Origin: an uncultured Rhodospirillaceae bacterium
Lineage (GTDB): Bacteria; Pseudomonadota; Alphaproteobacteria; Rhodospirillales; UBA2165
NCBI GenBank assembly: GCA_913020445.1
Contig: CAJWAR010000004.1
Location: 21,608-85,607, forward strand
Direction of reading: 5' to 3'
DNA: 64,000 nt
Shown: one piece after another, positions 20,555-47,613 of the stretch
Position numbering within the stretch: the stretch's first letter is position 1
Layout of the letters: each line of letters begins with the position of its first letter
Notes under the pieces: generated by a model
Database searches by the model: none
What the model saw: the letters and a program-made list of their open reading frames with translations, nothing else
What the model was told of the DNA's origin: nothing
Translations under genes and position numbers: made by a program

Positions 20555-20597
20555 GCGCCGCACTTCGATAATTTGAATAATAAACGGACGTTGAGAT

Positions 20598-33167: not shown

Positions 33168-33842
33168 CTAATAGCTGCGCGTATCCGGCAGAGTTACCAA
33201 AATACGGCGAAACACGTCGTCTATCATCGACGGCAACATGTCTTGATCACCATTCAACCGGCCGGCTCGTATTGCAGCCGAGCCCAATGAAAAGGGAGAC
33301 AACGGCAACCCGCCATCACTGCGATCAGTTGAGTGTTCGCCTCGCCATAGCGAATCGCCGCTCAAGCCCGAGATGATCTCCAGGCCTAAATGAACCCGCC
33401 GGCTCGCCCAAATTAAGGCAAAGTTTTGCTCGATGCCGCGAATTGATGGAATGGCTAAGAACCGGCAGACCCGGCCTCTATAACGGTAGCCGGCAAAATA
33501 TCGCCGGTCGGTTGGGTTGGTAAGATCCAGGGCCAGGCGGCGAGTCAATCTGCGCCGCTCCTCAGGCCCGATCACGTGTTCAATCTTACCTCGTAAATGG
33601 CGAGCGGCGGCTCGTTCAATGAGTATTTTGTCTTTTGCCTTTGCTTTTCCGCGAGCCGGCAAAACAATGACACAGTCAGGCGCCGCGCGATAATAGGCTT
33701 TGGAAACTTCATATTTAACCGTCCGTGCATCGGGCGATTTATTTGAATTTGACGAGGTATCATAGCTTCGATAGGTCGTCTGCAGACAGCCACTTAGGCC
33801 GATGCCGAAAATAATAATTATCGCTGGATGCAATTTAATCAC
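33168..33842 (-). CDS. Putative lipoprotein of unknown function; last gene of cluster operon A
   Basis: GTG start. Lipobox GLSGC after a hydrophobic h-region. A resemblance to LpoB/DUF799-type lipoproteins is only an impression. Confidence 0.65.
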   Translation of the reverse strand: MIKLHPAIIIIFGIGLSGCLQTTYRSYDTSSNSNKSPDARTVKYEVSKAYYRAAPDCVIVLPARGKAKAKDKILIERAAARHLRGKIEHVIGPEERRRLTRRLALDLTNPTDRRYFAGYRYRGRVCRFLAIPSIRGIEQNFALIWASRRVHLGLEIISGLSGDSLWRGEHSTDRSDGGLPLSPFSLGSAAIRAGRLNGDQDMLPSMIDDVFRRILVTLPDTRSY

Positions 33843-33844
33843 AC

Positions 33845-34777
33845 CTACAGCCTCCGTCCACGGGGACAGGCGAGCTGAATGCGTCCCTTTTGGCGCACGC
33901 CATCGGCAACAATATCGGTAACGAGAATTTTGCTGCCGTTGAGTTGATAGCGCGCTCGGATGGTTTTTCGGGAGCGATACCCAGCGCCAATAATCTGGCC
34001 CATGCCACCGAGCACAAAAGCATCCATTTGGCGGGTGAAGATGCGCATTGGTATCAATGATGCAACGCCGGTTTGTTGCTGCCTGATCCGGTTAATCTCC
34101 TGCGCTTCTGCAGTCACCGATCGGCCTGAAATTTGCCGCATGAAGGTGGAATAACGATCGAGATTGATCTGCCATTTTTCGCCTAACCGGCTATCGCTGA
34201 CAAACAATCGGTCATGGCGGTCAAGCAACGCAATGCGCATGCCGTGACATTGCACCAAGAGCTGATAAAGCCGTGATTTTTCCTGGCCACTATCAGGCCA
34301 GGCAAACTCGATTGACGGACCTGAGCCATGTTCCAAAAGACGCAATAACGTCCGGCCCTTTTCAACAATTTTTTTCGTTTTGGAAACCGTCCGAATAATC
34401 TCAGCGGCCGATGTGCGTTTTATCGTCACCTTTTTTTGATGTTTTTGCGGCTTGGGCTTTGTTCTTAAAGATTTTGGCTTCAAGGCCTTTACAGTTTTAG
34501 TAATTTCTTGGCGCGGCAGGGTTTTCATAGGCACCGCCTTTATCGCGACGTTAACCTTTGGCGGTGCCGGTAAGACAATAGTCTGTGGCGGCATTGGTTT
34601 TTGCACCGCTGGCTTAACAACCAACTGCGGGATCGGCCTGGGTTCGTTTTTAGTCGATTGTTTTTCCGCTATCGGTACGTCCAGCCAATTCAGCAGCACA
34701 ATAGCCAAAACAATTAGGCTAAGTGCCGCTGATAAAAAGGACCCCATCCACCGTCTACTCAGACAGTTTGTCAGCAA
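33845..34777 (-). CDS. Bitopic membrane protein with an N-terminal TM, a Pro/Lys-rich spacer and a C-terminal globular domain (TonB/TolA-style architecture)
   Basis: TM FLSAALSLIVLAIVLL. Spacer KPAVQKPMPPQTIVLPAPPKVN...KPKPQKHQKK. A domain of about 190 aa follows. The start is TTG 34777 or ATG 34747. Confidence 0.6.
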   Translation of the reverse strand: MLTNCLSRRWMGSFLSAALSLIVLAIVLLNWLDVPIAEKQSTKNEPRPIPQLVVKPAVQKPMPPQTIVLPAPPKVNVAIKAVPMKTLPRQEITKTVKALKPKSLRTKPKPQKHQKKVTIKRTSAAEIIRTVSKTKKIVEKGRTLLRLLEHGSGPSIEFAWPDSGQEKSRLYQLLVQCHGMRIALLDRHDRLFVSDSRLGEKWQINLDRYSTFMRQISGRSVTAEAQEINRIRQQQTGVASLIPMRIFTRQMDAFVLGGMGQIIGAGYRSRKTIRARYQLNGSKILVTDIVADGVRQKGRIQLACPRGRRL

Positions 34778-35249
34778 ACATCATCTCCATATCGTGGGCC
34801 AGACGATTAAGCTCACGCCGCCGTTCAGCGCGGCTCATGAATTTTTGCTCAGGTAGTTCCGGCTTTTTCCGCGCCATCGGGGCGATCAGTTCCGGCGATT
34901 CCGGCTTAGCGGCGACAATTTTTTGTGTCGGTGCCGGCTTGCTCACATGTTCGCTTAATAGCGGCACTTTATTAACCGGCCGCATGGCAACATCAACGGG
35001 TTGAATTTCGGGCTTTTTTTCAGCCTGATTTTTCGGCGCTTCTTCGGCAATTTCGAATTTTTCCCAATTTGCTTTAAAGCTCTCCAGTTTCTGGCGAGCC
35101 CGTTCGGCCAGTTCACGGCCTTTGTCGGTGGCATCACCAGACGCAACAGCAGGCAGAAGATCAGCAATTGGTTTAATCGGTTGGCCGTCAACGGCGACCA
35201 AATAGAGAATGGCAATCACCGCCATGAGATTAAAAAACATAAATTTCAT
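34755..35249 (-). CDS. Bitopic membrane protein with an N-terminal TM and a Pro/Lys/Glu-rich periplasmic region
   Basis: TM FFNLMAVIAILYLVAV. Its ATG overlaps the stop of the upstream gene as ATGA. Confidence 0.6.
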   Translation of the reverse strand: MKFMFFNLMAVIAILYLVAVDGQPIKPIADLLPAVASGDATDKGRELAERARQKLESFKANWEKFEIAEEAPKNQAEKKPEIQPVDVAMRPVNKVPLLSEHVSKPAPTQKIVAAKPESPELIAPMARKKPELPEQKFMSRAERRRELNRLAHDMEMMFADKLSE

Positions 35250-35779
35250 TTGATTTCTCCTTTTATCAGCAGGGTTCCTTGGGCTTCTTGAGAGGCGTGG
35301 GAGATCGACATCAAGGCGCGCAGCAAAGCCGCCAAGGGAAGACCAACAACCGTCGTCATAAAAGCCAGGCTGAAATGTTCGGTCAGGCTTCGAATGATGG
35401 TTTGAACGGTTTCCGGCGTTAGCTCTTGACCGGCCAGCGAGCCAATGCCGAGACTGATGCCAAGCAAGGTAAAAGTCAGCGCTAAAGTCGAGACGCCGTT
35501 AGCCGCGTGTAAGCCGCTTTCCAGCCACAGCTCGGCATCTTGCAGTCGCTTCCGGCGATGGGCCTCACTAAGTCGCACCCAGCAGAAAAAAACCAGAAAC
35601 ACCAAGCTGCTGAGCATCACCAAAAAGGCACTGCCAAATACTTTGAGCGCCCAGCCGGTAATTTCACCGACGCCGAAACTGGTTGTTGCAACCAAGACAG
35701 CGACAGTAATTACCAACAGGCCCAAAATTAGACTAAGACTGCGCGAACCGGCATGGATGAAGCTAAAGATTGCCTGCAT
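35246..35779 (-). CDS. MotA/TolQ/ExbB-like proton-channel family protein (tentative)
   Basis: Four hydrophobic helices. The C-terminal part, LALTFTLLGISLGIG...AFMTTVVGLPLAALL, resembles the MotA_ExbB signature (LGLLGT ... TTxxGLxxA). Confidence 0.5.
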   Translation of the reverse strand: MQAIFSFIHAGSRSLSLILGLLVITVAVLVATTSFGVGEITGWALKVFGSAFLVMLSSLVFLVFFCWVRLSEAHRRKRLQDAELWLESGLHAANGVSTLALTFTLLGISLGIGSLAGQELTPETVQTIIRSLTEHFSLAFMTTVVGLPLAALLRALMSISHASQEAQGTLLIKGEIK

Positions 35780-35787
35780 AATTCCCT

Positions 35788-36177
35788 CTAGCGCCGCCGT
35801 AAGGATGCGGATAAAACGCTTTGCGTCGTCATGCCAAGCTGGTTTAACCAGGCATCGACAATCGAGATATTTTTCTCGGTCGCGCCATGAACCAAAAACG
35901 TCAAATCATAGTTTTCAAAGGCTTGGCGCACCGTCGGCGTGTTGCGTCCGGTTAGTTTTTTGTCGCGCAACACCATGCGCTCGAGATCAATCAGCCGCAC
36001 TTTGGCGCTGGCTATTTTCGCCTGACGATCTTTGATCGCGATCTCGGGGTTCAACATTGTATTGATGGTAAGCGCGCGTTCGCGCTCGAGATTTTCCAGA
36101 GTTCCGGCTTCGGCCAGCGCTGAAAAGCTAACAACAGCTGAAAAAACAAATGCGGTGATGATTGGTTTGGTTTTCAT
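35788..36177 (-). CDS. Exported hypothetical protein
   Basis: Signal peptide MKTKPIITAFVFSAVVSFSALA. Confidence 0.6.
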   Translation of the reverse strand: MKTKPIITAFVFSAVVSFSALAEAGTLENLERERALTINTMLNPEIAIKDRQAKIASAKVRLIDLERMVLRDKKLTGRNTPTVRQAFENYDLTFLVHGATEKNISIVDAWLNQLGMTTQSVLSASLRRR

Positions 36178-36203
36178 TTTGGTTCTCCTAAAATTACCAA
36201 AGA

Positions 36204-37106
36204 TTAGTTGGTTAAAAAGTAATCGACGGCTTTGGCCGGTGATGAGGCCGACGGTCTATCGCTATCCGCCATCTCGGCATCCAAGGCCTGTTCTGAAAGC
36301 GCCAAGGCATCGAAGGCCACCAGCTTGGCCATATAACCAAGGATGGTTTCTTCCTGCTCAAGCACCGCAAGCTCGGCCTGTGCATCGGCCAATAATTGGC
36401 GGATATAATCTTCCTTGCTGAGCGGCTGGCCATCGACTTGCACGGATGTATTCATGCGGTGGCTTTGAATGCGGCTGGCGAGCTTTTCTATCGCCGCCAA
36501 ATTTTCCGCATATTTCACCGTGTATCTACTTTCCGGCACGACCGAGACTTGGAACAGTTTCATATCAACCTTGGCCAGCGATGATTTGAACCGCTGGCGG
36601 GCACCTTCCTGGCGGTTAACCAGCTCTTGGCGCACCGGTGTCATGCCGCGGTTTTTCTCCGCCATGCGCTTAAGCATGCGCTCGAACAATCGATGCTTGG
36701 TCCTAAGGTGCTTTTTGCGGTAGCGGTTTTTTTCGGAAATCAGCTCGAGAAAATTCCGTTTTTCGCCGAGAAACTGATGACGAAGTTCGAGCTTCAATTC
36801 GCCCTCCGCCTCTTCGATGGCATCCCGCAAATCCGCCAAAGTCTGACTTTTAAGACCGGTTTTTTCTTCCGTTTTTTGAATTGCCAGGCCGAGGGTTGAT
36901 TCCTGAAAATCATGGTCCAACGACTTTTTCAAATAGGTCGCCGGCAGTTTGATCAGCTTTTCGCTCGATTTAGGGTTCCAGGCCGGGATGTTGTTAGCAT
37001 CAGCGGCGGCATGAACCGAGGATGAGCTGGCGAGCAACGCGCCTACAGCTATCACAGCCACCGAAGCCAAAAGTTGAAACCGTATAGTTTGTTTATTATA
37101 CGACAT
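36204..37106 (-). CDS. Exported, long alpha-helical (coiled-coil) hypothetical protein
   Basis: ATG 37106 follows AAGGAG. Signal peptide ...LLASSSSVHA. The mature part is rich in heptad-like charged helices. Confidence 0.6.
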   Translation of the reverse strand: MSYNKQTIRFQLLASVAVIAVGALLASSSSVHAAADANNIPAWNPKSSEKLIKLPATYLKKSLDHDFQESTLGLAIQKTEEKTGLKSQTLADLRDAIEEAEGELKLELRHQFLGEKRNFLELISEKNRYRKKHLRTKHRLFERMLKRMAEKNRGMTPVRQELVNRQEGARQRFKSSLAKVDMKLFQVSVVPESRYTVKYAENLAAIEKLASRIQSHRMNTSVQVDGQPLSKEDYIRQLLADAQAELAVLEQEETILGYMAKLVAFDALALSEQALDAEMADSDRPSASSPAKAVDYFLTN

Positions 37107-37120
37107 CTCAGTTTTCTCCT

Positions 37121-37675
37121 TTAATTGTGTTTCCAATAGCGCACCCGACGAAGCTCGGATTTCACCCGGCTGCTGACATTGGCAGCCGACAGCTCGCCGA
37201 TGGCGGAGCGATCCCGAAGGCCTAAGAAAACTTCCATCGTGTCGGTAAAGGACGAACCGTCGGGGAAATAGAGATCTTGTCCGGGAAAGGCTTTTTTCAT
37301 TTTGCTGAGATTGACGCGGGCTTTGGCGATATCACCGCCTTTGAAATAATTTTGCACGCTAAGAGCGACCGCACGAACGCGCTCCTCCTCGCCGACTTTG
37401 GCCGCTTCCGGCCCAAGCTCCGCCTCACATTTATCCAATAACCTGGCGCTGGCGATATAGCGGGCAGCGGAAGATTCCGTTTTGGCTTTACGGTCCATTT
37501 CCAGCGCATCATCCCGGCACGAGCGATATTCCCGCATGGCTGAGATTTCGGCAAAGCGCGCCTCCCGGTAGCCAATACCCTCACGCGCAGTTTCGGTGGT
37601 GTAAAGATTACAGGCGCCCAGCGTAGCCGTGGCAGCCATTACGAAGGGTAGGCGTAAATTACGAAGATTGAACAT
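37121..37675 (-). CDS. Putative helical lipoprotein; first gene of cluster operon A
   Basis: ATG 37675 follows GGAGGA. Lipobox TLGAC. Confidence 0.65.
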   Translation of the reverse strand: MFNLRNLRLPFVMAATATLGACNLYTTETAREGIGYREARFAEISAMREYRSCRDDALEMDRKAKTESSAARYIASARLLDKCEAELGPEAAKVGEEERVRAVALSVQNYFKGGDIAKARVNLSKMKKAFPGQDLYFPDGSSFTDTMEVFLGLRDRSAIGELSAANVSSRVKSELRRVRYWKHN

Positions 37676-37715
37676 CAGCGTTCCTCCAGTTTGCAAAGTT
37701 AATTACTTAGCTTTG

Positions 37716-37742
37716 CTATGGCGGGGCCAGAGGCGGTTTTTT
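37716..37742 (-). promoter_or_regulatory. Cluster motif copy 1, promoter-like, upstream of operon A
   Basis: Coding-strand sequence AAAAAACCGCCTCTGGCCCCGCCATAG ends 40 nt before ATG 37675. It contains TGGCCC-N5-TAGCA, which has sigma-54 -24/-12 spacing. Confidence 0.55.
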
Positions 37743-37761
37743 TGAAAAAACGGGAAAAAAT

Positions 37762-37858: not shown

Positions 37859-37866
37859 CTCCCTGT

Positions 37867-37892
37867 CTATGGCGGGACCAGAGGGGGTTTTT
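37867..37892 (-). promoter_or_regulatory. Cluster motif copy 2, upstream of the sRNA candidate
   Basis: Coding-strand sequence AAAAACCCCCTCTGGTCCCGCCATAG. Confidence 0.5.
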
Positions 37893-38063
37893 ATGACGTA
37901 CTGGAAAAAAATGCCGTCAGGCGCGGGCCCATCCTAATTTTCTGGCCGCGTATCCATCTTCAAGAAGTTTATTCACCACAGAGTTCACAGAAAACACAGA
38001 GGATTTGGGAACGCCCCGACTCGTCACCGTAATTCGATTAAATGATCAGCGAGGCATAACCAT

Positions 38064-38759
38064 TTAGTTAATTTTCGCGTGCAACGGATCGGTAAATGCA
38101 TGTCCCCTGGCTCGGTAGGCTCTGATCGCTTGAGCAATTTCAGCGGAGCGGTGTTTCAAACCTGTCCGGATCCAGGGATATCCGGAAAGATCAACCAATT
38201 TGGTCATCGTCGCCCCTTTAAATTCGTTAGGGAAATTAGAGACGATCGTACTGGACATCAGGATCGCAGCAACTCTCCCGTGTTTAAGCATTCTGACTTG
38301 GCTATCAAATTTGGGAACATTCAAAATATTTTTTCTGCCCCGCACCAATTTCATCTGCCAACGGGCTCCCTCATTTATGGCAATTGACTTGCCGGCAAGG
38401 CTCTGCAGTGAGGTAACTTTCGGGTCAAAAGAAATTAACAATCCAGATCCATTGGTCAGCGGCTCTTCTATCATATGCAAATAATCTCCGGCAAACTTCT
38501 GATAAGCTCTGGCTCGGAGTATCAGGCCATCTAATTTACCACTTTTGATATCACGGGTCGCCCGCTTAAAGGGCGCATTGACTATTTCAATGCAAATACC
38601 CGCCTCTTTCAATGCTTGGACAAAATTACGTTTAATGTTTTGAAATACTGCTGTGGACTGATTTAAATCAGGATATTTGAGACATTGACCAGCTTGAATC
38701 GATGTAGTTGGAATGAGGAAATAACAAAGAAAAAAAATCAAGATGATGGCAAAACGCAT
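38064..38759 (-). CDS. Periplasmic solute-binding-protein-like protein (SBP family 3 type), orphan
   Basis: Signal peptide ...TTSIQA. Pattern FKRATRDIKSGKLDGLILRA fits family-3 SBP lobes. No permease or ATPase gene is adjacent. Confidence 0.5.
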   Translation of the reverse strand: MRFAIILIFFLCYFLIPTTSIQAGQCLKYPDLNQSTAVFQNIKRNFVQALKEAGICIEIVNAPFKRATRDIKSGKLDGLILRARAYQKFAGDYLHMIEEPLTNGSGLLISFDPKVTSLQSLAGKSIAINEGARWQMKLVRGRKNILNVPKFDSQVRMLKHGRVAAILMSSTIVSNFPNEFKGATMTKLVDLSGYPWIRTGLKHRSAEIAQAIRAYRARGHAFTDPLHAKIN

Positions 38760-41788: not shown

Positions 41789-42330
41789 CGAATAAAGGCT
41801 TCCGTTTTTGGATCACTTAACAGACGTACCAAATCTGCATCCCGGTCGGCAATGATTTGCGCCACACCGTCACGGATTTTAGGCAGCGGGAAACGGCTGC
41901 AATTGGCTTCAACATCACACACCACCAACGTCGTTGGCGTGACCTTCTCGTTGCCCGAAAGCTCGACAATCACATATACCTGGTTTGGCTCAGCCCGGGA
42001 TGGCTCCATTCGAATACGGCAGCCTTTGCCTTCGCGGGACAAAATATCGTCGGACTTTTTCGCTGAACTGGCCGCCATCGCTTCCGGTACATAATAGACC
42101 GCATTTTTCTCCAGCATGTCGCGATAGATCCGGCGCAAAGCCAAGTTTTCGCCCAAGGCTTTCTCAACAGTTTCGTTTTCCGCACCATTGGCATAAGCAA
42201 ACAAGGCCGACGGCGAAACAGATGATAGTTTTTCACTTGAGCTCAATAATTCATCGATCTGCGACAATTCAGAAAATTTTTGTTTTGCCGCTTGAAGTTT
42301 TTCATCACCTGGAATTTTATAATCACTCAT
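41785..42330 (-). CDS. Cytoplasmic hypothetical protein (181 aa)
   Basis: ATGA overlap with the upstream gene. No signal peptide and no recognisable motif. Confidence 0.55.
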   Translation of the reverse strand: MSDYKIPGDEKLQAAKQKFSELSQIDELLSSSEKLSSVSPSALFAYANGAENETVEKALGENLALRRIYRDMLEKNAVYYVPEAMAASSAKKSDDILSREGKGCRIRMEPSRAEPNQVYVIVELSGNEKVTPTTLVVCDVEANCSRFPLPKIRDGVAQIIADRDADLVRLLSDPKTEAFIR

Positions 42331-43970
42331 TGGACGTCTCCATAGAGCAGATTAAACTGATTGCTAAAGACCTGTTTGTCTTGATCAAACTTGCTGTTGA
42401 GGTCTTCACCGTCTTTATCCAGCGCCGCCATGCGCGTCAAAAATGTTTCGAGTTGGCCCGATATACTCAGCAGCGCCCCGGCACCCATCCGGAACCCCTC
42501 AATGCCGTCGGGATCTTCAAGCATATCTTCATTAAACCCTTTCCGGGTAAGTTTGCTAAAAGCGTCTACGGCATCTGCCATGAAATCGGAACTCATCTCG
42601 ATGTCGTCCAGATTGTCATTATGGCGGGCTGCTTCAAAAACGCTATCTGGATTTTGCGCGCCAAAGGCGACAATATTATCACCCAAATCAGCCGCATCCT
42701 GTCCGGCGAGAACAAAGTATGTCGCCTTTTGCAATTGACGGACATGGGCCAGGATCGTTTGAAACTGCTCGCGTTTATCATCGTAAGCCATCGCATCACG
42801 GCAATCGAGGCGTTGGCGAACCGAAGTTTCGCCGCGCTTGACCTGCAAATCAGTTGTTATCGCAGTTTGGATCGAGCCAAAGACCTCCAATTGCATGAAG
42901 GAGCGCGGCAAACGGCCGGCATAGGGCCCGTATTGCATCAACGCTTCGATGGGTTTGCGCTCACCTTCTTTTTTAAAGAATTTAATTTGATTAGCGGGCT
43001 CTGCATCGAGAATATTCAACGGTGATTGCCAATCGCCTAAACCATCCAGGCCGTCACTTTGATCGTCGGGCTCAATTTCCTGAGCCTCAAAATCAGTGCC
43101 GATTATGGCGGCATTTTCAATGGTGTCCTGCTGGTCAGCTTCTTCCAGGGCGCGCATGAAGTTAACAAAGCCATCGAACACGGTCTTATAGGCGCGAAAT
43201 TCGCCAACCGTGGAAAACTCCAGCCAGAAATCCAAAACTGCCGGATCATCAATACAAATTTGCCCATCTCTTTCTCCGGCATTTTCCCGAGCTTTGAGAA
43301 AACCGAAAATCCGGTCAAATTTTTCGTCATGCTGAGCCCGGGTTAAATGTTCCCGGCGGTATTTTCTGAGCCGTGCCGATATTCTGTTACTGGCGGTTTT
43401 GATCGCTTCAAGATCAATTGACGCTTGCGACAAGTCATCGAAAATCTCATTAAGTTCGGTATAGAAGTCATAGTTATCCAAACCGGTGAGAAATTCATAA
43501 AGCGCCGCCAAAAACGGCATGCGGCCAAAGCGCACTTCAAAGCCATCATCGTCATAGTAAACGCCAATGCCATTTTCGGTGCGCTCGAAACCCGGTTTCA
43601 GCCAGTCACCAAACTCAAGCTTTTCATCAAGGGCGGCGCGATAGACCGCCGGCAGTGCTTTTTCAACACCGAGAAAAAATAAAGCGCGTTCGTCACTGCC
43701 GCCCTCGCTCAACGCATCAATGGCGCTGACCAGATGGCAAAGCTCAAAAATCGGGGCATCTTTGTGTGGCCCGCCGGCGGAACCGACAATGAACTTGGCC
43801 AGCCACACCATCACCGGGGCGTGGCTGTATTTAGTGCTGCCGTCAGATGCCGTCGCTTCGCCAATTGCCTTAAAATCGGCCAATAAGGGGCCGGAAGCCC
43901 CTGACCGGGTAATTGTCGAAACTGCATCATCCATCTGGTCATTACTCGTAATAATAGTCTGGGTTTCCAT
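42327..43970 (-). CDS. Cytoplasmic acidic hypothetical protein (about 547 aa)
   Basis: Long ORF with no TM, no Walker A and no motif I recognise. ATG 43970 (METQT) follows AGGA; TTG 43997 is an alternative start. Confidence 0.6.
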   Translation of the reverse strand: METQTIITSNDQMDDAVSTITRSGASGPLLADFKAIGEATASDGSTKYSHAPVMVWLAKFIVGSAGGPHKDAPIFELCHLVSAIDALSEGGSDERALFFLGVEKALPAVYRAALDEKLEFGDWLKPGFERTENGIGVYYDDDGFEVRFGRMPFLAALYEFLTGLDNYDFYTELNEIFDDLSQASIDLEAIKTASNRISARLRKYRREHLTRAQHDEKFDRIFGFLKARENAGERDGQICIDDPAVLDFWLEFSTVGEFRAYKTVFDGFVNFMRALEEADQQDTIENAAIIGTDFEAQEIEPDDQSDGLDGLGDWQSPLNILDAEPANQIKFFKKEGERKPIEALMQYGPYAGRLPRSFMQLEVFGSIQTAITTDLQVKRGETSVRQRLDCRDAMAYDDKREQFQTILAHVRQLQKATYFVLAGQDAADLGDNIVAFGAQNPDSVFEAARHNDNLDDIEMSSDFMADAVDAFSKLTRKGFNEDMLEDPDGIEGFRMGAGALLSISGQLETFLTRMAALDKDGEDLNSKFDQDKQVFSNQFNLLYGDVQ

Positions 43971-44018
43971 TTTTCGTTTTATCCTGTTTAAGTTCAACCC
44001 TAAATGTCGTTCTGATGC

Positions 44019-45020
44019 TTAACCGTTGCGCCAATAATTGCGGCGTCGGGGAGAGGATGAAAAGTCGTCAAGCGTGTGAGCGGCTCTAAGACGGCGGTCT
44101 TCCAGCGTTGAATTGCTATTCGCATAACGGTCATATCGCCAAGGGCGATAAGAACGATCCCGCCGATATCTCCGACCTCTGTTATTTCTTCCAGAAATCC
44201 ATGAGGTCCGAATGCGAGTATTAGATCCTGCGTAACGGAGATCGAAACGACCATTAAAGTAAGAACTAAACTGATCATACTCCCGCCAGGCTGCTTTCTG
44301 TCCGGATTTGCGGCAAGGTCTGTCGAAATCATTCCAAGCGTAATCACGGCCTCTATTGCGCCCAAAACGATTCCAGCGCCGGTTCTGATTCAGGGGGACC
44401 CAGCGGTCATTGTCGCGATTATCCTTTTCGTCATCCCAGCGAACTCGTGGCTGATCGTTGCTGCGCTTTTTCCAGCGCTGCTCCCATTTGTCGCCTTTAT
44501 CGTCGTCATTAAAGGCGATGGCCCAAACTTTGTTCTGTTCGGCATAGCGCTGCTGCCAGCGTTGCACCAGGCGCACATAGGATTTGGTAAATTCATGGGG
44601 TTCGGCGTTGCTGCCCTTACCCTTCAAGGTGCCGCCATTGTAATGCGAAAGTGCCAGCTCCCAATTGCCACCATATTGGCGGCGCAGTTTGGCCAGATAG
44701 TCGATGCCAAGCTGAATGTTAAGCCGGGCCTGCCAAAGCTCGTCTTTATCAACACCGAATTCATCCTTGGCGGTTTTCGGCATTAACTGCATGACACCAC
44801 GCGCCCCTGCCGTGCTCAGCGCGGTTGGATTAAAATCCGATTCGACTTTAGCCACAGCCAGCGCCAAAGCCGGCGGCACCGAAGAGTTTTGTGCTTCTTC
44901 GACAACTATTTTTTTTATTTCAGCGCGCGACACAGCGAGCGCCGGATTGATAATGGCAATAATCGCAATTGCGGCGATAAGGCCAGCAAGACTAAGTCTC
45001 AGAAAGTTTTGCAATGTCAT
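44019..45020 (-). CDS. SLT-family lytic transglycosylase with a long Arg/Trp/Asp/Asn-rich C-terminal tail
   Basis: Signal/anchor LSLAGLIAAIAIIAIINPALA. SLT core ALALAVAKVESDFNP...GARGVMQLMP...YNGG. The tail of roughly 180-190 aa is low-complexity (RWKKRSNDQPRVRWDDEKDNRDNDRW...RRYRRDRSYRPWRYDRY). Confidence 0.8.
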   Translation of the reverse strand: MTLQNFLRLSLAGLIAAIAIIAIINPALAVSRAEIKKIVVEEAQNSSVPPALALAVAKVESDFNPTALSTAGARGVMQLMPKTAKDEFGVDKDELWQARLNIQLGIDYLAKLRRQYGGNWELALSHYNGGTLKGKGSNAEPHEFTKSYVRLVQRWQQRYAEQNKVWAIAFNDDDKGDKWEQRWKKRSNDQPRVRWDDEKDNRDNDRWVPLNQNRRWNRFGRNRGRDYAWNDFDRPCRKSGQKAAWREYDQFSSYFNGRFDLRYAGSNTRIRTSWISGRNNRGRRYRRDRSYRPWRYDRYANSNSTLEDRRLRAAHTLDDFSSSPRRRNYWRNG

Positions 45021-45466
45021 TTTATTTTCTCCTTTAATGTCATTAGCCAGGCGTCGTTCAGGGTTGTGACAATCAAATTTGCATTGCCGAACCGGTCCCG
45101 AACCGAGATTGCCTGCCGCAAAGGTAATTCCGGCGCGACGGCCAGAAATTGAATTTTCTCGGATTGAAGTTGATGTGACGCCAAGGGGTTGAGGCCGGCA
45201 TCATAGAGTTGGCCTTTGTAAAAAACTGCCATTTTCTCCGGTTGGATGGCCGTTACACTGCCGCTCTTCCCATCTTGTGATTTCGTCGAACTGGCTCGCT
45301 TGATTGAAACGCCCGAAATATCGAGCAACACGTCTGCAGTCTTTTTGATCTTCCCAACCGTTCCGGTGCTCATCGACACCATGGTCAACACCATCAAGCT
45401 GAAAAACGCCATTGATAGCGCCAGAGCAATTTCAACCAGGGCATTATTTTCTGAACCAGAAGGCAT
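45017..45466 (-). CDS. MotB/ExbD/TolR-like single-TM protein (tentative); first gene of cluster operon B
   Basis: I prefer ATG 45466 (MPSGSENN); the track ORF start at 45610 would bury motif copy 3. The TM NALVEIALALSMAFFSLMVL has an acidic residue near its cytoplasmic end, as in stator/ExbD proteins. A periplasmic domain of about 100 aa follows. Confidence 0.45.
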   Translation of the reverse strand: MPSGSENNALVEIALALSMAFFSLMVLTMVSMSTGTVGKIKKTADVLLDISGVSIKRASSTKSQDGKSGSVTAIQPEKMAVFYKGQLYDAGLNPLASHQLQSEKIQFLAVAPELPLRQAISVRDRFGNANLIVTTLNDAWLMTLKEKIK

Positions 45467-45507
45467 GTCGCTATTTTCCCACTCGCGATGATTAACTGAT
45501 GCCTTAT

Positions 45508-45533
45508 CTATGCGGGGCCCAGAGCAGGTTTTT
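45508..45533 (-). promoter_or_regulatory. Cluster motif copy 3, upstream of operon B
   Basis: Coding-strand sequence AAAAACCTGCTCTGGGCCCCGCATAG ends 41 nt before ATG 45466. Confidence 0.5.
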
Positions 45534-45586
45534 CGCCGGCGGCGAAGAAAAATTGCATTTTTATAAAATTTTTTTTGAGTGCGGAG

Positions 45587-45612
45587 AAAAAACGCCTCTC
45601 GCCACGCCATAG
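45587..45612 (+). promoter_or_regulatory. Cluster motif copy 5, upstream of the S1 protease gene and divergent from copy 3
   Basis: AAAAAACGCCTCTCGCCACGCCATAG ends 54 nt before ATG 45667. Confidence 0.5.
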
Positions 45613-45666
45613 CTCCTCACAAGCGCCTTTCGAGGGGTGCACAACAATCTTATGTGAGGTACAGAA

Positions 45667-46506
45667 ATGACTAATTTTAAAAAGGTGGCTGCGGCCACAC
45701 TAACGGGCGCCGTTGTTTTAATGAGTGGTACTGGGGTAAAGGCAGGAGGGTCTGGAACAGGATTTTTTGTTAACCCCAACGGATACATCGTCACCAACAA
45801 CCACGTCGCCATCGGAACTCTGCGATTTAAAGATGGTACGCAAATTCCATTTCCCTGCCGATCTATCACAGCCAAAATCGGACACACTACTTACCGGGCA
45901 AAACTGTTAGCAAGAGACAAACAAAACGATTTGGCACTTCTGAAAATTGATCTAGGAGAACAAAAACAACGGCACTTTGTTGCTTTGAAGTCAAATCAAT
46001 CGGTCAACGGCTGGACGAACCTTGGTGGCGTTTTAGGTCTACAAACCGGGATTAGCAATGGCCACAATAGAATATCCAATTCATCTTTCAGCTATGTTCG
46101 ATTAGCGAAGAATCAGGTCACCCACGGTGACATTGTTCATGTATTCGGCTACCCACTCGGAAATTTCATTTCTTCCCAAATGAAAATTGCGACGGGAGCG
46201 GTAAATGCAACCATGGGATTTGACGATAACTCCAGTAGATTTCAACATGACGCTGCCGCCTATCCCGGGAACAGCGGCAGCCCCGTAATGGATAAGGCCG
46301 GTAATCTCGTTGGTGTTCATGTCTCGGGAGCTGGAATTAACACCAGGCTTAAATTTGCCATTAAAGGAAATGTCTTGAAGGAATTCCTGAAGCTTAATGA
46401 TGTGCCGTTTGACGAAGTTCAAAATGACACACCGGTTTCCGCTCAGGAATTATACCGACAAGCCAAACACTATATCACCTACATGAATTGTTACGACTAC
46501 CATTAA
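45667..46506 (+). CDS. Secreted trypsin-like (S1) serine protease
   Basis: Signal peptide ...GTGVKA. Triad contexts TNNHV, NDLALLKI and GNSGSPV. Confidence 0.8.
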   Translation: MTNFKKVAAATLTGAVVLMSGTGVKAGGSGTGFFVNPNGYIVTNNHVAIGTLRFKDGTQIPFPCRSITAKIGHTTYRAKLLARDKQNDLALLKIDLGEQKQRHFVALKSNQSVNGWTNLGGVLGLQTGISNGHNRISNSSFSYVRLAKNQVTHGDIVHVFGYPLGNFISSQMKIATGAVNATMGFDDNSSRFQHDAAAYPGNSGSPVMDKAGNLVGVHVSGAGINTRLKFAIKGNVLKEFLKLNDVPFDEVQNDTPVSAQELYRQAKHYITYMNCYDYH

Positions 46507-46531
46507 CGTCTTCAACCCCTCCTTTTCCTAG

Positions 46532-46565
46532 CCCCGCCCACTTCAACGAGTGCGGCGGGGTTTTT
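46532..46565 (+). terminator. Rho-independent terminator after the protease gene
   Basis: CCCCGCCCAC / GTGCGGCGGGG stem followed by TTTTT. Confidence 0.7.
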
Positions 46566-46645
46566 CTGTGCCGTTTTTTCACCACTTTTTTGGGCTAAAT
46601 TTGGCAAAAATGTGCATAACAGGTAATATTTTTCAAGTTCTTCAG

Positions 46646-46671
46646 AAAAACGGCCTCTGGGCCCGGCATAT
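46646..46671 (+). promoter_or_regulatory. Cluster motif copy 4, upstream of 46723-47613
   Basis: AAAAACGGCCTCTGGGCCCGGCATAT ends 51 nt before ATG 46723. Confidence 0.5.
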
Positions 46672-46722
46672 CGAGGTTAGGTAATCGATCTTTATTGTTT
46701 TAAAAGTTAGGGAGTAACCTCG

Positions 46723-47613
46723 ATGAAACGCATTTTTACTATTTTAATCGCTGCCTTGACCATCACGTCCGGCACCATCTTTAACAACCCGGCACTTGCC
46801 GCAGAACAACCTAATATTATGATTATGGGCGAAGATGGCGACCGGGATTCGGTGCCGCGCAACAGCCGCGTTTTTAAACGCGTTTTGAATGCACTCGCTA
46901 ATCAACTGCATGATGAAGGCTTTGACGTCTTTGATGAAACGGCGCTGACATTGGATAATTATGTGCAAGGCCGGATCCGGCGCTCTGATGACGAAATTAT
47001 CGATATTGCCCGCTCTGTTGACCGGCCGCCGATCGATGTCGCTGTCATTTTCGGCATTTATGCCAGTTCCAATCGCACCAGCTACACCACCAAAATCCGC
47101 ACCCGCATCGAAGGCCGTATGTTGAACGTTCGATCCGGCCAGCGGCTCGGCAATTTTGAAGTGGATATCCCCCGCGCCTTCAATGCGCCGCACGATTGCA
47201 ACCGGGAATGTTTGCTTGAAACAGTGGGCCGCAAGGCACGCAGTCTGTCCCAAGACCTTGGCGCCGTGCTGACTGAAAAATTAGCGTATATGGTTGATCG
47301 TGGCCGCCGCTTCGCGTCTGAAAATCGCAACAGTTATCTACCTACAGCCTACCGCCTCGCCTTTAGTGGCTTCAATGAAGACGATATTGACGGCATTGAA
47401 GAGTATATCGTCGCCTTCAAAGGCTATATCCATCATCGCCCAACCAATACATCTAAACGTCATGCCGATTATTGGTATGAAACCGATAGCGGCAGCGCCC
47501 GGCTCAATCGTAATTTGCGCCGCATGCTCGATCATTTAGGCGTGCGCGGCAGAGTGTCCTTTGCCGGCAATACATTCAATGTCGACAAAATCACCTTTAG
47601 AAGCCGCCGGTAA
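46723..47613 (+). CDS. Exported hypothetical protein
   Basis: AGGGAG RBS. Signal peptide ...NNPALA. The two-domain look is reminiscent of LpoB/FlgT-type periplasmic proteins, which is only an impression. Confidence 0.6.
   Translation: MKRIFTILIAALTITSGTIFNNPALAAEQPNIMIMGEDGDRDSVPRNSRVFKRVLNALANQLHDEGFDVFDETALTLDNYVQGRIRRSDDEIIDIARSVDRPPIDVAVIFGIYASSNRTSYTTKIRTRIEGRMLNVRSGQRLGNFEVDIPRAFNAPHDCNRECLLETVGRKARSLSQDLGAVLTEKLAYMVDRGRRFASENRNSYLPTAYRLAFSGFNEDDIDGIEEYIVAFKGYIHHRPTNTSKRHADYWYETDSGSARLNRNLRRMLDHLGVRGRVSFAGNTFNVDKITFRSRR

What the first reader, a model, noticed from the sequence alone, without database searches (positions are those of the whole stretch)
33168..47613. A 14.5-kb cluster of about 17 uncharacterised envelope proteins: candidate undescribed trans-envelope system
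Between housekeeping genes (rpoH, rluD) and a signalling locus lie two long minus-strand operons (37675 down to 33168, and 45466 down to 38973 or 38064) and two plus-strand genes. Nearly every product has a signal peptide, a lipobox (LSGC, LGAC) or a TM anchor.

The parts I can recognise suggest an energised, peptidoglycan-crossing machine:
- a MotA/ExbB-like channel (35246-35779);
- a MotB/ExbD-like single-TM protein with an acidic TM residue (45017-45466);
- two TM plus Pro/Lys-spacer proteins built like TonB/TolA (33845-35249);
- an SLT lytic transglycosylase (44019-45020);
- a secreted S1 protease (45667-46506);
- a membrane protein with a cytoplasmic Lon-like domain (40502-41788);
- lipoproteins, and a DUF4384-like exported protein.

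I saw no ATPase, secretin, pilin, flagellar or known secretion-system core gene. About 10 of the proteins carry no motif I recognise. The whole set shares one upstream motif (separate finding). That combination does not match Tol-Pal, Ton, flagellar stator, Zorya or gliding loci as I know them.
Basis: partly seen in the sequence, partly recalled or inferred. Interest (0 to 1): 0.8.

Follow-up and report, generated by a model that had tools for sequence, protein, structure and literature searches.

The report
Undescribed proton-motor envelope gene cluster
This is a real 13-14-gene cluster, conserved in many marine bacteria, that joins a Ton/Tol-type membrane motor, a cell-wall-cutting enzyme, lipoproteins and a membrane-anchored Lon-like protease with two partners of unknown fold; no described system matches it and its role is unknown.

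Summary
There are 16 ORFs at 33168-47613. They form two tightly packed minus-strand operons plus two plus-strand genes. Fourteen products carry a signal peptide, lipobox or TM segment, and none has a Walker A motif.

Thirteen of the genes stay together, mostly in one fixed order, in more than 30 other genomes. These include Rhodospirillales MAGs, five Terasakiella species, Magnetovibrio and Magnetococcales. g09 recurs as a separate gene or fused to g10. g08 (a binding-protein-like gene) and g15 (trypsin) are lineage-specific.

Pfam and NCBIfam recognise only SLT, Trypsin_2 and DUF4384.

The motor reading is supported indirectly. In four related loci the g04 slot holds a bona fide MotA_ExbB protein followed by an ExbD-like one. 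Exactly those loci lack both g04 and g14.

The g10 cytoplasmic domain keeps a Lon-type Ser-Lys pattern. g12 has a confident model with no fold match in the PDB, and its family has 876 clusters at 50% identity.

The g12-g11-g10 triad plus SLT also occurs without the motor module. There it sits among caspase and FGE-sulfatase genes.

A shared promoter-like motif precedes every unit except g08, and it recurs with the system across bacterial classes.

Verdict: a real, undescribed composite envelope system. Its function is not established.

The parts
33168..33842 (-). g01: lipoprotein (lipobox LSGC), 224 aa. Conserved C-terminal motif DGGLPLSP...DDAxRRxxxTLPDxR.
   Evidence: Lipobox and hydropathy scan. 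Orthologs in 18 loci. Alignment A10. No Pfam, NCBIfam or PDB match.
33845..34747 (-). g02: N-terminal TM anchor, Pro/Lys-rich spacer, and a conserved ~170-aa C-terminal domain (LLRLLEHGxGPxIEIAWP...). TonB/TolA-like in architecture only.
   Evidence: No TonB_C or TolA hit. In the PDB profile search TonB appears only at E 8.8, through the Pro-rich region.
34755..35249 (-). g03: TM anchor (MKFLxFN motif), variable Pro-rich linker, and a short conserved C-terminal helix (LMTPxERRRELxxLAxDME). The TM motif is lost in the locus that carries a canonical ExbB/ExbD pair.
   Evidence: Alignment A14. Hydropathy scan.
35246..35779 (-). g04: short (177 aa) polytopic inner-membrane protein, the putative MotA/ExbB/TolQ-like channel subunit.
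   Evidence: - AF2 model, pLDDT 85.8.
- 32 of the top 50 Foldseek PDB hits are TolQ/PomA/MotA/ZorA chains, but with E 0.3-2.
- Three PADLOC ZorA models hit at E 0.002-0.0035.
- T143 aligns to TolQ T178 and ExbB T181 in non-significant hhalign alignments.
- Its slot is taken by a true PF01618 protein in L008 and L010-L012.
- There is no Pfam hit for g04 itself.
35788..36177 (-). g05: secreted 129-aa protein, 41-67% identical across the 13 aligned orthologues (25 invariant residues).
   Evidence: Alignment A12. No PDB, Pfam or NCBIfam hit.
36204..37106 (-). g06: secreted 300-aa protein that reads as helical or coiled-coil (Glu/Lys/Arg/Leu-rich).
   Evidence: Sequence and signal peptide. Orthologs in 28 loci. 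The coiled-coil character is judged by eye and was not computed.
37121..37675 (-). g07: lipoprotein (LGAC), 184 aa, with invariant Cys53 and Cys83.
   Evidence: Alignment A11. No PDB, Pfam or NCBIfam hit.
37716..37742 (-). Promoter-like motif AAAAAACCGCCTCTGGCCCCGCCATAG, about 40 nt upstream of g07.
   Evidence: Conserved upstream of g07 orthologs in 13 loci.
37867..37892 (-). Second copy of the motif, about 190 nt upstream of g07.
38973..40505 (-). g09: secreted 510-aa protein with a C-terminal DUF4384 domain. In Terasakiella and some other genomes this domain is fused to g10 instead.
   Evidence: Pfam E 4.9e-12. Fusions seen.
40502..41788 (-). g10: bitopic protein. It has a cytoplasmic ~190-aa Lon-protease-like domain (invariant S81, H90, T114-G115, K132), a TM helix at 209-227, a Pro/Lys spacer and a periplasmic domain.
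   Evidence: - Alignments A5 and A6.
- PADLOC CARF_LON, E 5.5e-4.
- hhalign against the E. coli Lon P-domain, E 0.014, with K132 on the catalytic K722.
- No Pfam Lon_C hit.
41785..42330 (-). g11: cytoplasmic 181-aa protein with a conserved (A)AAAS motif (A86 and A87 invariant) and invariant R99, S111 and Q117. It always lies between g12 and g10.
   Evidence: Alignment A8. No PDB hit.
42327..43970 (-). g12: cytoplasmic 547-aa, mostly helical protein with no known fold. It is the signature protein of the system.
   Evidence: - AF2 model, pLDDT 82.5.
- Foldseek against the PDB: no hit with E<0.7.
- 876 family clusters in the HMM search.
- No Pfam hit in 68 diverse members, apart from one N-terminal Zn_ribbon_DnaG fusion and one marginal TPR_GEMI5 hit.
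44019..45020 (-). g13: exported SLT-family lytic transglycosylase with the ES, GVMQLMP and YNGG motifs. It has a lineage-specific Arg/Asn/Trp/Asp-rich tail.
   Evidence: Pfam SLT, E 1.6e-24. NCBIfam domain-level hits. Sequence.
45017..45466 (-). g14: single-TM protein with an invariant Glu12 in the TM helix (NAMTEIALALAMAFF) and a small periplasmic domain. It is the putative ExbD/TolR-like subunit. The true start is 45466, not 45610.
   Evidence: - Alignment A3.
- The promoter motif lies inside the longer ORF.
- g14 is absent exactly where g04 is absent, and there an ExbD-like ORF replaces it.
- No Pfam or PDB hit.
45508..45533 (-). Motif copy upstream of g14 (operon 2).
45587..45612 (+). Motif copy upstream of g15.
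45667..46506 (+). g15: secreted trypsin-like serine protease. It is a lineage-specific accessory (found only in L004 and L007) but carries the same upstream motif.
   Evidence: Pfam Trypsin_2, E 2.8e-25. Distribution. Motif.
46646..46671 (+). Motif copy upstream of g16.
46723..47613 (+). g16: secreted 296-aa protein with an invariant CxxxC pair. It is conserved with the system, including in gammaproteobacterial and Magnetococcia loci.
   Evidence: Alignment A7. HMM table. No PDB hit.
38064..38759 (-). g08: a 231-aa gene with weak similarity to solute-binding proteins. It is NOT part of the system: it is a lineage-specific insertion between the two operons and has no motif upstream.
   Evidence: No ortholog in any related locus. 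Weak NCBIfam hits to arginine-binding proteins. Upstream sequence.

Best explanation
The cluster encodes one conserved, co-regulated envelope system built from two modules. No described system matches it.

Module B (g01-g07 plus g14) is a Ton/Tol-type machine driven by proton-motive force.
- g04 (ExbB/TolQ-like) and g14 (ExbD/TolR-like, with Glu instead of Asp in its TM helix) would form the inner-membrane motor.
- g03 and g02 would dock on the motor through their N-terminal TM helices and reach across the periplasm on Pro-rich linkers.
- The secreted proteins g05 and g06 and the lipoproteins g07 and g01 would form the periplasmic and outer-membrane side.

Module A is the triad g12-g11-g10, plus the SLT lytic transglycosylase g13 and the secreted proteins g09 and g16.
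- g10 places a Lon-like Ser-Lys protease domain on the cytoplasmic face and a variable sensor-like domain (its own domain, DUF4384 or DUF4189) in the periplasm.
- I infer that g10 acts as a transmembrane proteolytic switch on the two cytoplasmic partners g11 and g12.
- The SLT would open peptidoglycan locally so the assembly can form.

All units carry one promoter-like motif, so they would be switched on together.

Shown: gene content, predicted topology, co-conservation, motif and operon structure.

Inferred: motor stoichiometry, physical contacts, protease activity and its substrates, and the biological role. My best guess for the role is stress-induced envelope surveillance or maintenance.
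For: **Co-conservation.** The order g16-g14-g13-g12-g11-g10-(g09)-g07-g06-g05-g04-g03-g02-g01 recurs in Terasakiella, Rhodospirillales MAGs, Magnetovibrio, Magnetococcales and a 'Hyphomicrobiales' MAG.

**Motor.**
- In L008 and L010-L012 the g04 slot holds a PF01618 MotA_ExbB protein (32.7 bits against a cut-off of 22.9, E 7e-8).
- It is followed by a 138-aa ORF whose TM helix, PFFDLLMVLLV, matches E. coli ExbD around D25.
- These four loci are exactly the ones that lack both g04 and g14.
- The g04 model gives 32 TolQ/PomA/MotA/ZorA chains among the top 50 Foldseek hits.
- Three ZorA HMMs hit g04 at E about 2e-3.
- g14 has an invariant TM Glu.
- The conserved TM motif of g03 is lost where the motor is replaced.

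**The two modules are linked.**
- g14 is encoded inside the module A operon while g04 is in module B.
- The same motif precedes every unit.

**Lon-like domain.**
- S81, K132 and TG114-115 are invariant across 32 diverse homologs.
- K132 aligns with the Lon catalytic K722.
- The PADLOC CARF_LON model hits at E 5.5e-4.

**SLT.** Pfam E 1.6e-24 with catalytic motifs present.

**No ATPase.** No protein has a Walker A motif. Proton-motive force is therefore the only energy source that the recognisable parts point to.
Against: - Curated models for MotA_ExbB, ExbD, TonB_C, TolA and Lon_C do not hit the window's proteins.
- hhalign against E. coli TolQ, ExbB, TolR and ExbD is not significant.
- The Foldseek E-values for g04 are 0.3-2.
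- g02 and g03 lack the conserved TM His of TonB/TolA.
- No outer-membrane beta-barrel or peptidoglycan-binding domain was recognised in the window, so envelope spanning is not demonstrated.
- Module A occurs without module B in gammaproteobacterial and Magnetaquiglobus loci, and the triad occurs alone in L053. The two modules can therefore work apart.
- There are no experimental data for any member.
Confidence: 0.6

Rival explanations
1. It is an anti-phage or conflict system. Periplasmic sensors and proteases (DUF4384, trypsin, and caspase/FGE-sulfatase proteins in other lineages) and a Zorya-like motor would detect envelope attack. They would signal through the Lon-like protease to an unknown effector (g12).
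For: - Weak PADLOC hits to ZorA and CARF_LON.
- In the gammaproteobacterial loci L042 and L046, the unassigned metagenome contig L055 and the Magnetococcia locus L045, the triad (with SLT, except L045 where none was found) sits among genes for Peptidase_C14, FGE-sulfatase, PEGA, PG_binding_1, Pkinase-FGE-sulfatase and AAA_16.
- L042 also has AAA_21/AAA_15 plus DUF4276 pairs.
- L055 also has a transposase and group II introns.
- The taxonomic spread is patchy: 43 of about 185,000 species genomes.
- The closest PDB sequence to the g10 domain is a SAVED-fused protein, but at E 0.88, which is not significant.
Against: - No PADLOC system model fits, and no nuclease, TIR, Sir2 or similar effector is present.
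- g12 is absent from plasmid and viral collections.
- Gene order is kept across five Terasakiella species and many Rhodospirillales, next to housekeeping genes. That looks like vertical inheritance.
- The window's flanks are rpoH, rluD and signalling genes.
Confidence: 0.2
2. These are two unrelated systems that only happen to be neighbours: a stand-alone triad plus SLT module, and a separate Ton/Tol paralogue.
For: Module A occurs without module B within 10 kb in L041, L042, L045, L046 and L055. The triad occurs alone, twice, in L053.
Against: - In every sufficiently long alphaproteobacterial and Magnetococcales-MAG locus the two are contiguous and co-directional.
- The motor's B subunit g14 sits in the module A operon, far from g04.
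- One motif heads all units.
Confidence: 0.12
3. It is a diverged copy of an already described machine: Tol-Pal, the TonB system, a flagellar stator with H/T-ring accessories, Agl-Glt gliding, or a secretion or DNA-uptake system.
For: - The design echoes Tol-Pal: a motor, a TM plus Pro-rich transducer, a coiled-coil periplasmic protein and lipoproteins.
- SLT enzymes accompany T3SS, T4SS and flagella (from my own knowledge of those systems).
- The motif also precedes dprA-topA.
- One g12 homolog is fused to a DnaG-type zinc ribbon.
Against: - There is no TolB, Pal/OmpA, TonB_C, TolA, TPR, flagellar, secretin, pilin, ComEC or ATPase hit in the window.
- Eleven of the 14 conserved proteins match no Pfam or NCBIfam family and eight (g01, g02, g04, g05, g07, g11, g14, g16), plus the g10 N-domain, were tested as profiles and match no PDB sequence.
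- No flagellar genes appear in the 20-kb neighbourhoods I inspected.
Confidence: 0.05

Closest known systems
Tol-Pal system (TolQ-TolR-TolA-TolB-Pal-CpoB)
   Same: - An inner-membrane ExbB/TolQ-like plus ExbD/TolR-like pair.
- Bitopic proteins with an N-terminal TM helix and a Pro-rich periplasmic linker.
- A secreted protein that looks coiled-coil.
- Outer-membrane-type lipoproteins.
- No ATPase.
   Different: - No TolB beta-propeller, no OmpA-like Pal domain, no TolA_C or TPR domain, and no TM His in the transducers.
- The motor subunits fail the Pfam models, and the B subunit carries Glu rather than Asp.
- It has in addition an SLT, a Lon-like bitopic protein and two cytoplasmic proteins of unknown fold.
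Ton system (ExbB-ExbD-TonB)
   Same: In four related loci the motor slot is filled by a PF01618 ExbB-like protein and an ExbD-like protein. The transducers have a TM plus Pro-rich architecture.
   Different: There is no TonB_C domain, no TonB-dependent receptor in the cluster, and many extra conserved components.
Zorya (ZorAB plus ZorC/D or ZorE)
   Same: A MotAB-family motor is coupled to cytoplasmic proteins that are not part of a transport or motility machine. g04 gives weak hits to ZorA HMMs.
   Different: g04 has no long ZorA tail, g14 has no recognisable peptidoglycan-binding domain, and there are no ZorC, ZorD or ZorE homologs. The cluster is much larger and is mainly periplasmic proteins and lipoproteins.
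Agl-Glt gliding machinery of Myxococcus
   Same: A TolQR-type motor is joined to several TonB-like bitopic proteins, periplasmic proteins or lipoproteins, and cytoplasmic components in one large locus.
   Different: No sequence or domain relationship was found: no TPR, TonB_C or outer-membrane barrels. The hosts are flagellated spirilla or cocci, and the Lon-like triad has no Glt counterpart.
CalpL-CalpT-CalpS (Lon-SAVED protease releasing a sigma factor)
   Same: A Lon-type Ser-Lys protease domain without an AAA+ module is fused to a sensor domain. It is encoded with two small or medium cytoplasmic partners. A dedicated promoter motif travels with the system.
   Different: - The sensor is periplasmic (DUF4384, DUF4189 or its own domain), not SAVED.
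- The partners show no sigma or anti-sigma domains.
- The similarity is only weak.
- Cleavage is purely inferred.
Specialised lytic transglycosylases of envelope machines (VirB1, IagB/EtgA, SltF)
   Same: g13 is a small exported SLT enzyme encoded inside the cluster of a multi-protein envelope assembly. NCBIfam gives domain-level hits to IagB and to the flagellar lytic transglycosylase BB0259.
   Different: The associated machine is not a T3SS, a T4SS or a flagellum.

Membership tests
MotA/TolQ/ExbB (PF01618), for g04 | Match to the curated family model above its gathering score | tested here: not met
   No Pfam or NCBIfam hit at E<=0.01. The A2 profile finds no PDB stator sequence. hhalign against TolQ and ExbB gives E 0.46 and 0.21.
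MotA/TolQ/ExbB (PF01618), for g04 | Fold of the A subunit (TM helical hairpins lining the pore) | tested here: inconclusive
   AF2 monomer, pLDDT 85.8. Of the top 50 Foldseek PDB hits, 32 are TolQ/PomA/MotA/ZorA chains, but E is 0.3-2 and TM-scores are 0.25-0.44.
MotA/TolQ/ExbB (PF01618), for g04 | Conserved Thr in the last TM helix (TolQ T178, ExbB T181) | tested here: inconclusive
   The nearly invariant T143 in AFMTTVVGLP aligns to TolQ T178 and ExbB T181, but only in non-significant hhalign alignments. The functional role of those Thr residues comes from my own knowledge.
MotA/TolQ/ExbB (PF01618), for g04 | Works with a single-TM B subunit that carries an acidic TM residue; the two genes co-occur | tested here: met
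   g14 has an invariant Glu12. g04 and g14 are present or absent together. In L008 and L010-L012 both are replaced by a PF01618 protein plus an ExbD-like ORF in the g04 slot.
ExbD/TolR (PF02472), for g14 | Match to the family model; Asp in the TM helix | tested here: not met
   No Pfam, NCBIfam or PDB hit. hhalign against TolR and ExbD gives E 0.17 and 0.28. The TM acidic residue is Glu, not Asp. The architecture (N-terminal TM plus a small periplasmic domain) fits.
TonB/TolA force transducers, for g02 and g03 | TonB_C or TolA_C C-terminal domain | tested here: not met
   No Pfam or NCBIfam hit. In the PDB profile search TonB appears only at E 8.8, through the Pro-rich stretch.
TonB/TolA force transducers, for g02 and g03 | Conserved His in the N-terminal TM helix that binds the motor (as described in PMC12204202) | tested here: not met
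   No conserved His in the TM helices. g03 instead has a conserved F6-N7.
TonB/TolA force transducers, for g02 and g03 | N-terminal TM anchor followed by a Pro-rich periplasmic spacer | tested here: met
   Hydropathy and Pro content. Alignments.
Tol-Pal system | TolB beta-propeller and an OmpA-like Pal lipoprotein in the operon | tested here: not met
   No such Pfam or NCBIfam domains in any of the 16 products.
Lon protease S16 proteolytic domain, for the g10 N-terminus | Ser-Lys catalytic dyad in the GxSxx(L/I) ... TGE ... (E)K context | tested here: inconclusive
   S81, T114-G115 and K132 are invariant in 32 homologs. hhalign against the E. coli Lon P-domain gives E 0.014 with K132 on K722. 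PADLOC CARF_LON hits at E 5.5e-4. But there is no Pfam Lon_C hit and no significant PDB hit.
Lon protease S16 proteolytic domain, for the g10 N-terminus | AAA+ ATPase module, as in LonA and LonB | tested here: not met
   No Walker A motif and no AAA hit. If g10 is Lon-like, it is a protease domain only.
SLT lytic transglycosylase (PF01464), for g13 | Family model above its cut-off, with catalytic Glu-Ser and the GLMQ and YNGG motifs | tested here: met
   86.2 bits against a cut-off of 21.3. The sequence contains VESDF, GVMQLMP and HYNGG.
Zorya defence system | ZorA with a long cytoplasmic tail, ZorB with a peptidoglycan-binding domain, and ZorC/D or ZorE effectors | tested here: not met
   Only weak ZorA hits to the TM region of g04. 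g04 is 177 aa with no tail. No other Zorya model hit among the ten proteins scanned (g01, g02, g04, g06, g09-g12, g14, g16).
Flagellar H/T-ring or stator accessory set | FlgO, FlgP, FlgT, MotX or MotY families, or flagellar gene context | tested here: not met
   No such Pfam or NCBIfam hits. No flagellar genes in the neighbourhoods listed.

The most novel reading that the evidence does not exclude
The g12-g11-g10 triad is a new kind of transmembrane proteolytic signalling or effector module. Its parts are a periplasmic sensor domain, a membrane-anchored AAA-less Lon-like protease, a small partner with an invariant AAAS motif, and a 550-aa protein of novel fold. It brings its own promoter motif wherever it goes. 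In Rhodospirillales and Magnetococcales it has been wired to a dedicated Ton/Tol-type motor with a Glu-bearing B subunit, so that mechanical or proton-motive-force-dependent probing of the envelope controls a cytoplasmic output. g12 could even be the factor that reads the shared motif.
Probability: 0.25. Interest if true: 0.9.

Novelty: new variant of a known kind. Interest (0 to 1): 0.72.

Why it matters
Only a handful of jobs are known for ion-driven 5:2 motors: flagellar rotation, TonB-dependent import, Tol-Pal, gliding/T9SS and Zorya.

This cluster would add another. Its motor is minimal and has diverged so far that curated models miss it. It is coupled to about ten conserved envelope proteins with no family assignment and to a cytoplasmic triad.

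The triad's signature protein forms a large family: 876 clusters at 50% identity, with no Pfam domain and no fold match in the PDB.

The system is present in cultured strains (Terasakiella pusilla DSM 6293 and T. brassicae CGMCC 1.15254). The question of what it does can therefore be tested directly by genetics, cryo-ET and biochemistry.

The natural swap between the divergent pair (g04/g14) and a canonical ExbB/ExbD pair gives a ready-made comparison for how such motors couple to their partners.

Tried and rejected
**Family scans**
- Pfam and NCBIfam scans of all 16 proteins, and a PADLOC scan of ten of them (g01, g02, g04, g06, g09-g12, g14, g16). Only SLT, Trypsin_2 and DUF4384 passed their cut-offs.
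- Pfam on 68 diverse g12 relatives found only one Zn_ribbon_DnaG fusion and one marginal TPR_GEMI5 hit (E 5e-4).

**Profile and fold searches**
- Profile searches of PDB sequences for g04, g14, the g10 N-domain, g16, g11, g02, g01, g07 and g05 gave no significant hit.
- hhalign of the g04 and g14 profiles against E. coli TolQ, ExbB, TolR and ExbD was not significant.
- hhalign of g04 and g14 against the canonical pair of L010 was not significant for g04 and gave E 0.017 for g14. This is displacement, not detectable orthology.
- g16 against g09: not paralogs.
- Foldseek of the g12 model against the PDB found nothing.

g10, g11, g14 and the periplasmic proteins therefore have no models.

**Mobile-element searches**
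- g12 is absent from plasmids and viral contigs.

**Literature**
- Searches on DUF4384, on ExbB/ExbD with lytic transglycosylase, on motor phylogeny and on caspase with FGE-sulfatase found no description of this gene set.
- I could not confirm from papers which sigma factor reads the motif.

**Ideas considered and set aside**
- A sigma-54 reading of the motif was considered and dropped. The GG-N10-GC spacing fits only the copy next to g07; the copies before g14 and g16 read GA and TC there.
- A magnetosome link, suggested by weak MamO/MamE hits of the trypsin domain, was dropped. It is generic HtrA-type similarity.

Full report
**1. What is in the sequence**

Between 33168 and 47613 there are 16 plausible genes. 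Identical contigs exist in TARA Oceans and JGI marine metagenomes and in the MAG GCA_002327565.1. Their gene calls, the ortholog alignments and the operon spacing fix the starts given in 'parts'.

- Seven genes (g07 to g01, 37675 down to 33168) are separated by -4 to 26 nt.
- Six genes (g14 to g09, 45466 down to 38973) are separated by -4 to 48 nt.
- g15 and g16 lie on the plus strand.
- g08 sits alone between the two operons.

A hydropathy and lipobox scan shows that 14 of the 16 products have a signal peptide, a lipobox (LSGC in g01, LGAC in g07) or TM helices. Only g11 and g12 are fully cytoplasmic. None of the 16 has a Walker A motif.

Pfam and NCBIfam recognise only three domains above their cut-offs:
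- SLT in g13, E 1.6e-24
- Trypsin_2 in g15, E 2.8e-25
- DUF4384 in g09, E 4.9e-12

The count is 16 rather than 17.

**2. The genes are kept together in other genomes**

The 547-aa cytoplasmic protein g12 has only 'hypothetical' relatives without Pfam domains. A scan of one genome per species found 43 loci:
- mostly Rhodospirillales MAGs
- the cultured Terasakiella brassicae and T. pusilla
- Magnetovibrio
- three gammaproteobacterial MAGs
- Candidatus Magnetaquiglobus

tblastn and then HMMs built from the orthologs gave a clear picture. In loci long enough to tell, the order g16-g14-g13-g12-g11-g10-(g09)-g07-g06-g05-g04-g03-g02-g01 recurs, all on one strand in Terasakiella. The same order appears in a Magnetococcales MAG, a 'Hyphomicrobiales' MAG and another metagenome contig.

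g08 has no ortholog anywhere. g15 recurs only in two close relatives. The flanking housekeeping genes of the window (rpoH, rluD, a JAB-domain gene) do not travel with the cluster.

**3. The motor pair**

g04 (177 aa) and g14 (149 aa from the ATG at 45466) fail every curated model:
- Pfam and NCBIfam give nothing.
- PDB sequence profiles give nothing.
- hhalign against E. coli TolQ, ExbB, TolR and ExbD is not significant.

Even so, the top hhalign alignments put AFMTTVVGLP of g04 on the last TM helix of TolQ and ExbB. T143 lands on TolQ T178 and ExbB T181.

Three further lines point the same way.

- (a) Three independent PADLOC ZorA (MotA/ExbB/TolQ) models hit g04 at E 0.002-0.0035.
- (b) The AF2 model of g04 (pLDDT 85.8) gives 32 TolQ/PomA/MotA/ZorA chains among its top 50 Foldseek PDB hits. 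No single hit is significant, with E 0.3-2.
- (c) The strongest line is a natural swap.
  - In L008, L010, L011 and L012 the slot between g05 and g03 holds a 174-aa ORF that passes the Pfam MotA_ExbB gathering score (32.7 against 22.9 bits).
  - It is followed by a 138-aa ORF whose TM helix, PFFDLLMVLLV, matches E. coli ExbD around D25.
  - These four loci are exactly the ones that lack both g04 and g14. No other locus has the canonical pair.

g14 itself has an invariant Glu in its TM helix (NAMTEIALALAMAFF) and a small periplasmic domain. I conclude that g04 and g14 work like an ExbB/ExbD pair, although membership of the families is not demonstrated.

The conserved TM motif of g03 (MKFLxFN) is absent in the L010 version. 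That is what one expects if this helix docks on the motor. It rests on one aligned sequence.

**4. The other module B proteins**

g02 and g03 have the TonB/TolA architecture: a TM anchor and a Pro-rich spacer. They lack TonB_C and TolA_C domains, and they lack the conserved TM His described for TonB/TolA in PMC12204202.

g05, g06, g07 and g01 are well conserved, at about 40-70% identity for g05-g07 and 29-52% for g01:
- g07 has two invariant cysteines.
- g01 has a DGGLPLSP...TLPD motif.
- g05, g07 and g01 match nothing in Pfam, NCBIfam or PDB sequences; g06 matches nothing in Pfam or NCBIfam and was not searched against PDB sequences.

**5. Module A**

g10 is bitopic: a cytoplasmic ~190-aa domain, one TM helix, a Pro/Lys spacer and a periplasmic domain. 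Across 32 diverse homologs the cytoplasmic domain keeps Y45, G61, R69, G79, S81, W82, H90, T114, G115 and K132 invariant.

This pattern, GxSWQL...A...TGEV...H..EK...VPxxN, is that of the Lon proteolytic domain:
- hhalign against the E. coli Lon P-domain gives E 0.014 and puts K132 on the catalytic K722.
- The PADLOC CARF_LON model hits at E 5.5e-4.
- The best PDB sequence, not significant at E 0.88, is a SAVED-fused protein sharing GNSWQLAV.

There is no AAA+ module.

The periplasmic part varies between homologs: its own domain, DUF4384, DUF4189, and once an MFS transporter. In Terasakiella the DUF4384 of g09 is fused to g10.

g11 (181 aa) has a conserved (A)AAAS stretch, with A86 and A87 invariant.

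g12 gave a confident, mostly helical AF2 model (pLDDT 82.5) with no Foldseek match in the PDB (best E 0.74). An exhaustive HMM search found 876 clusters at 50% identity (452 at E<=1e-30), nearly all 480-600 aa. Pfam found nothing in 68 diverse members, apart from one N-terminal DnaG-type zinc ribbon and one marginal TPR_GEMI5 hit (E 5e-4).

g13 is an exported SLT with intact catalytic motifs.

**6. The system is composite**

In two gammaproteobacterial loci (L042, L046), an unassigned metagenome contig (L055) and Magnetaquiglobus (L045) the triad g12-g11-g10 (with SLT, except L045 where none was found, and with g16 or g09 in all but L055) occurs without module B. There it is surrounded by genes for Peptidase_C14 caspases, FGE-sulfatase domains, PEGA, PG_binding_1, a kinase-FGE-sulfatase fusion, AAA_16, and in one case AAA_21 plus DUF4276 pairs and mobile elements.

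One contig carries two bare triads.

There are thus two flavours:
- triad plus SLT plus the Ton-like module, in Alphaproteobacteria and Magnetococcales;
- triad plus SLT plus periplasmic caspase/FGE-sulfatase proteins.

The window's trypsin g15 may be the local counterpart of those proteases.

In the first flavour the modules are clearly linked. They are always contiguous, and the motor's B subunit lies in the module A operon.

**7. Co-regulation**

CTCTGGNCCCNNCATA occurs four times exactly in the cluster, against 0.04 expected. With its A-rich 5' part (AAAAAC), it precedes:
- g07, in two copies
- g14
- g16
- g15, in a slightly different form

g08 has none.

The same GAAAAnC-N(~10)-CC(T)TCCATAG element precedes the first genes of the units in nearly all related loci. 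That includes the SLT, g16 and caspase genes of most gammaproteobacterial and Magnetococcia loci.

A further copy lies upstream of dprA-topA at 12675-12699. The element is therefore not exclusive to the cluster.

From memory, its -10-like part resembles the sigma-32 CCCCATNT element. I could not verify this from the papers I read.

**8. What it most likely is, and what it is not**

The best-supported reading is a conserved, co-regulated envelope system. A Ton/Tol-type motor driven by proton-motive force, with its periplasm-spanning partners and lipoproteins, is coupled to a transmembrane Lon-like protease module and a peptidoglycan-opening SLT.

It is not Tol-Pal, Ton, a flagellar accessory set, Zorya or Agl-Glt by any defining feature I could test (see the membership table).

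A defence or conflict role is a serious rival for the biological function. This is mainly because of the company the triad keeps in Gammaproteobacteria. Arguing against a typical mobile defence island:
- there is no recognisable effector;
- g12 is absent from plasmid and viral collections;
- the gene order is inherited stably in Terasakiella.

Literature searches found no description of the set. Recent surveys of MotAB homologs (PMC12505986) and of force transducers (PMC12204202) do not mention it.

**9. Limits**

- The Lon-like fold of g10, the folds of the periplasmic proteins and any complex remain untested.
- Every functional statement beyond domain content, topology, synteny and motif is inference.

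Noticed in passing
window 12675-12699 (+), upstream of dprA (12743-13885) and topA (13777-16590): There is a near-identical copy of the cluster's promoter-like motif here (AAAACCGCCTCTGTCCCCGCCATAT). The motif is therefore not exclusive to the cluster. Its -10-like CCCCGCCATA part resembles sigma-32 promoters (from memory). An rpoH-like gene lies 2.4 kb from the cluster at 29891-30775.
   Followed up: partly
related loci L042, L045, L046, L050, L051, L053, L054, L055 (upstream of SLT, g16, g07-like and caspase genes): The GAAAAnC...CC(T)TCCATAG element travels with the system across Alpha- and Gammaproteobacteria and Magnetococcia. It also heads the neighbouring caspase genes. This suggests a conserved dedicated or stress sigma factor, or a regulator encoded by the system itself.
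   Followed up: partly
window 38064-38759 (-): g08 is a 231-aa exported protein with weak similarity to arginine/lysine ABC substrate-binding proteins (E about 1e-3). It is inserted between the two operons only in this lineage and has no motif upstream.
   Followed up: yes
L010:15335-16272 (also L008, L011, L012): In four related genomes the divergent g04/g14 pair is replaced, in the g04 slot, by a short (174-aa) Pfam-positive MotA_ExbB protein and an adjacent ExbD-like protein. This is a natural motor swap within one conserved system.
   Followed up: yes
L054:8344-10443 (protein P0382): One g12 homolog carries an N-terminal CHC2 DnaG-type zinc ribbon (Pfam E 1.5e-35). It is the only domain fusion seen in the family. 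It hints at nucleic-acid binding, but it could be a gene-call fusion.
   Followed up: no
L053:5119-12353: This metagenome contig has two copies of the bare triad (g12-like, g11-like, g10-like), on opposite strands. No SLT or motor module is nearby.
   Followed up: no
L042:15715-17515 and 18870-20775: One AAA_21/AAA_15 ATPase gene followed by a DUF4276 gene, plus a second such ATPase (its 239-aa neighbour was not scanned), sit next to the gammaproteobacterial triad. This gives that locus a defence-island look.
   Followed up: no
window 44019-44530 (C-terminal ~170 residues of g13): The SLT carries a long Arg/Asn/Trp/Asp-rich low-complexity tail (RWNRFGRNRGRDYAWNDFDR...). The orthologs are mostly 170-300 aa, so much of this tail varies between lineages.
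   Followed up: no
window about 26696-29176 (-), from the gene tables of L002 and L003: A protein with a weak Pkinase hit lies just beyond rpoH. It is called as one 826-aa gene in the MAG but as 482-aa plus 274-aa genes in the JGI contig. This is a possible frameshift or assembly difference. In Magnetaquiglobus a kinase-FGE-sulfatase fusion accompanies the triad.
   Followed up: no
window 32710-33033 (-): A 107-aa ORF with an N-terminal TM helix lies directly downstream of g01. It recurs (40% identity) in the same position in the closest relative, L004, and may be a further small component.
   Followed up: no
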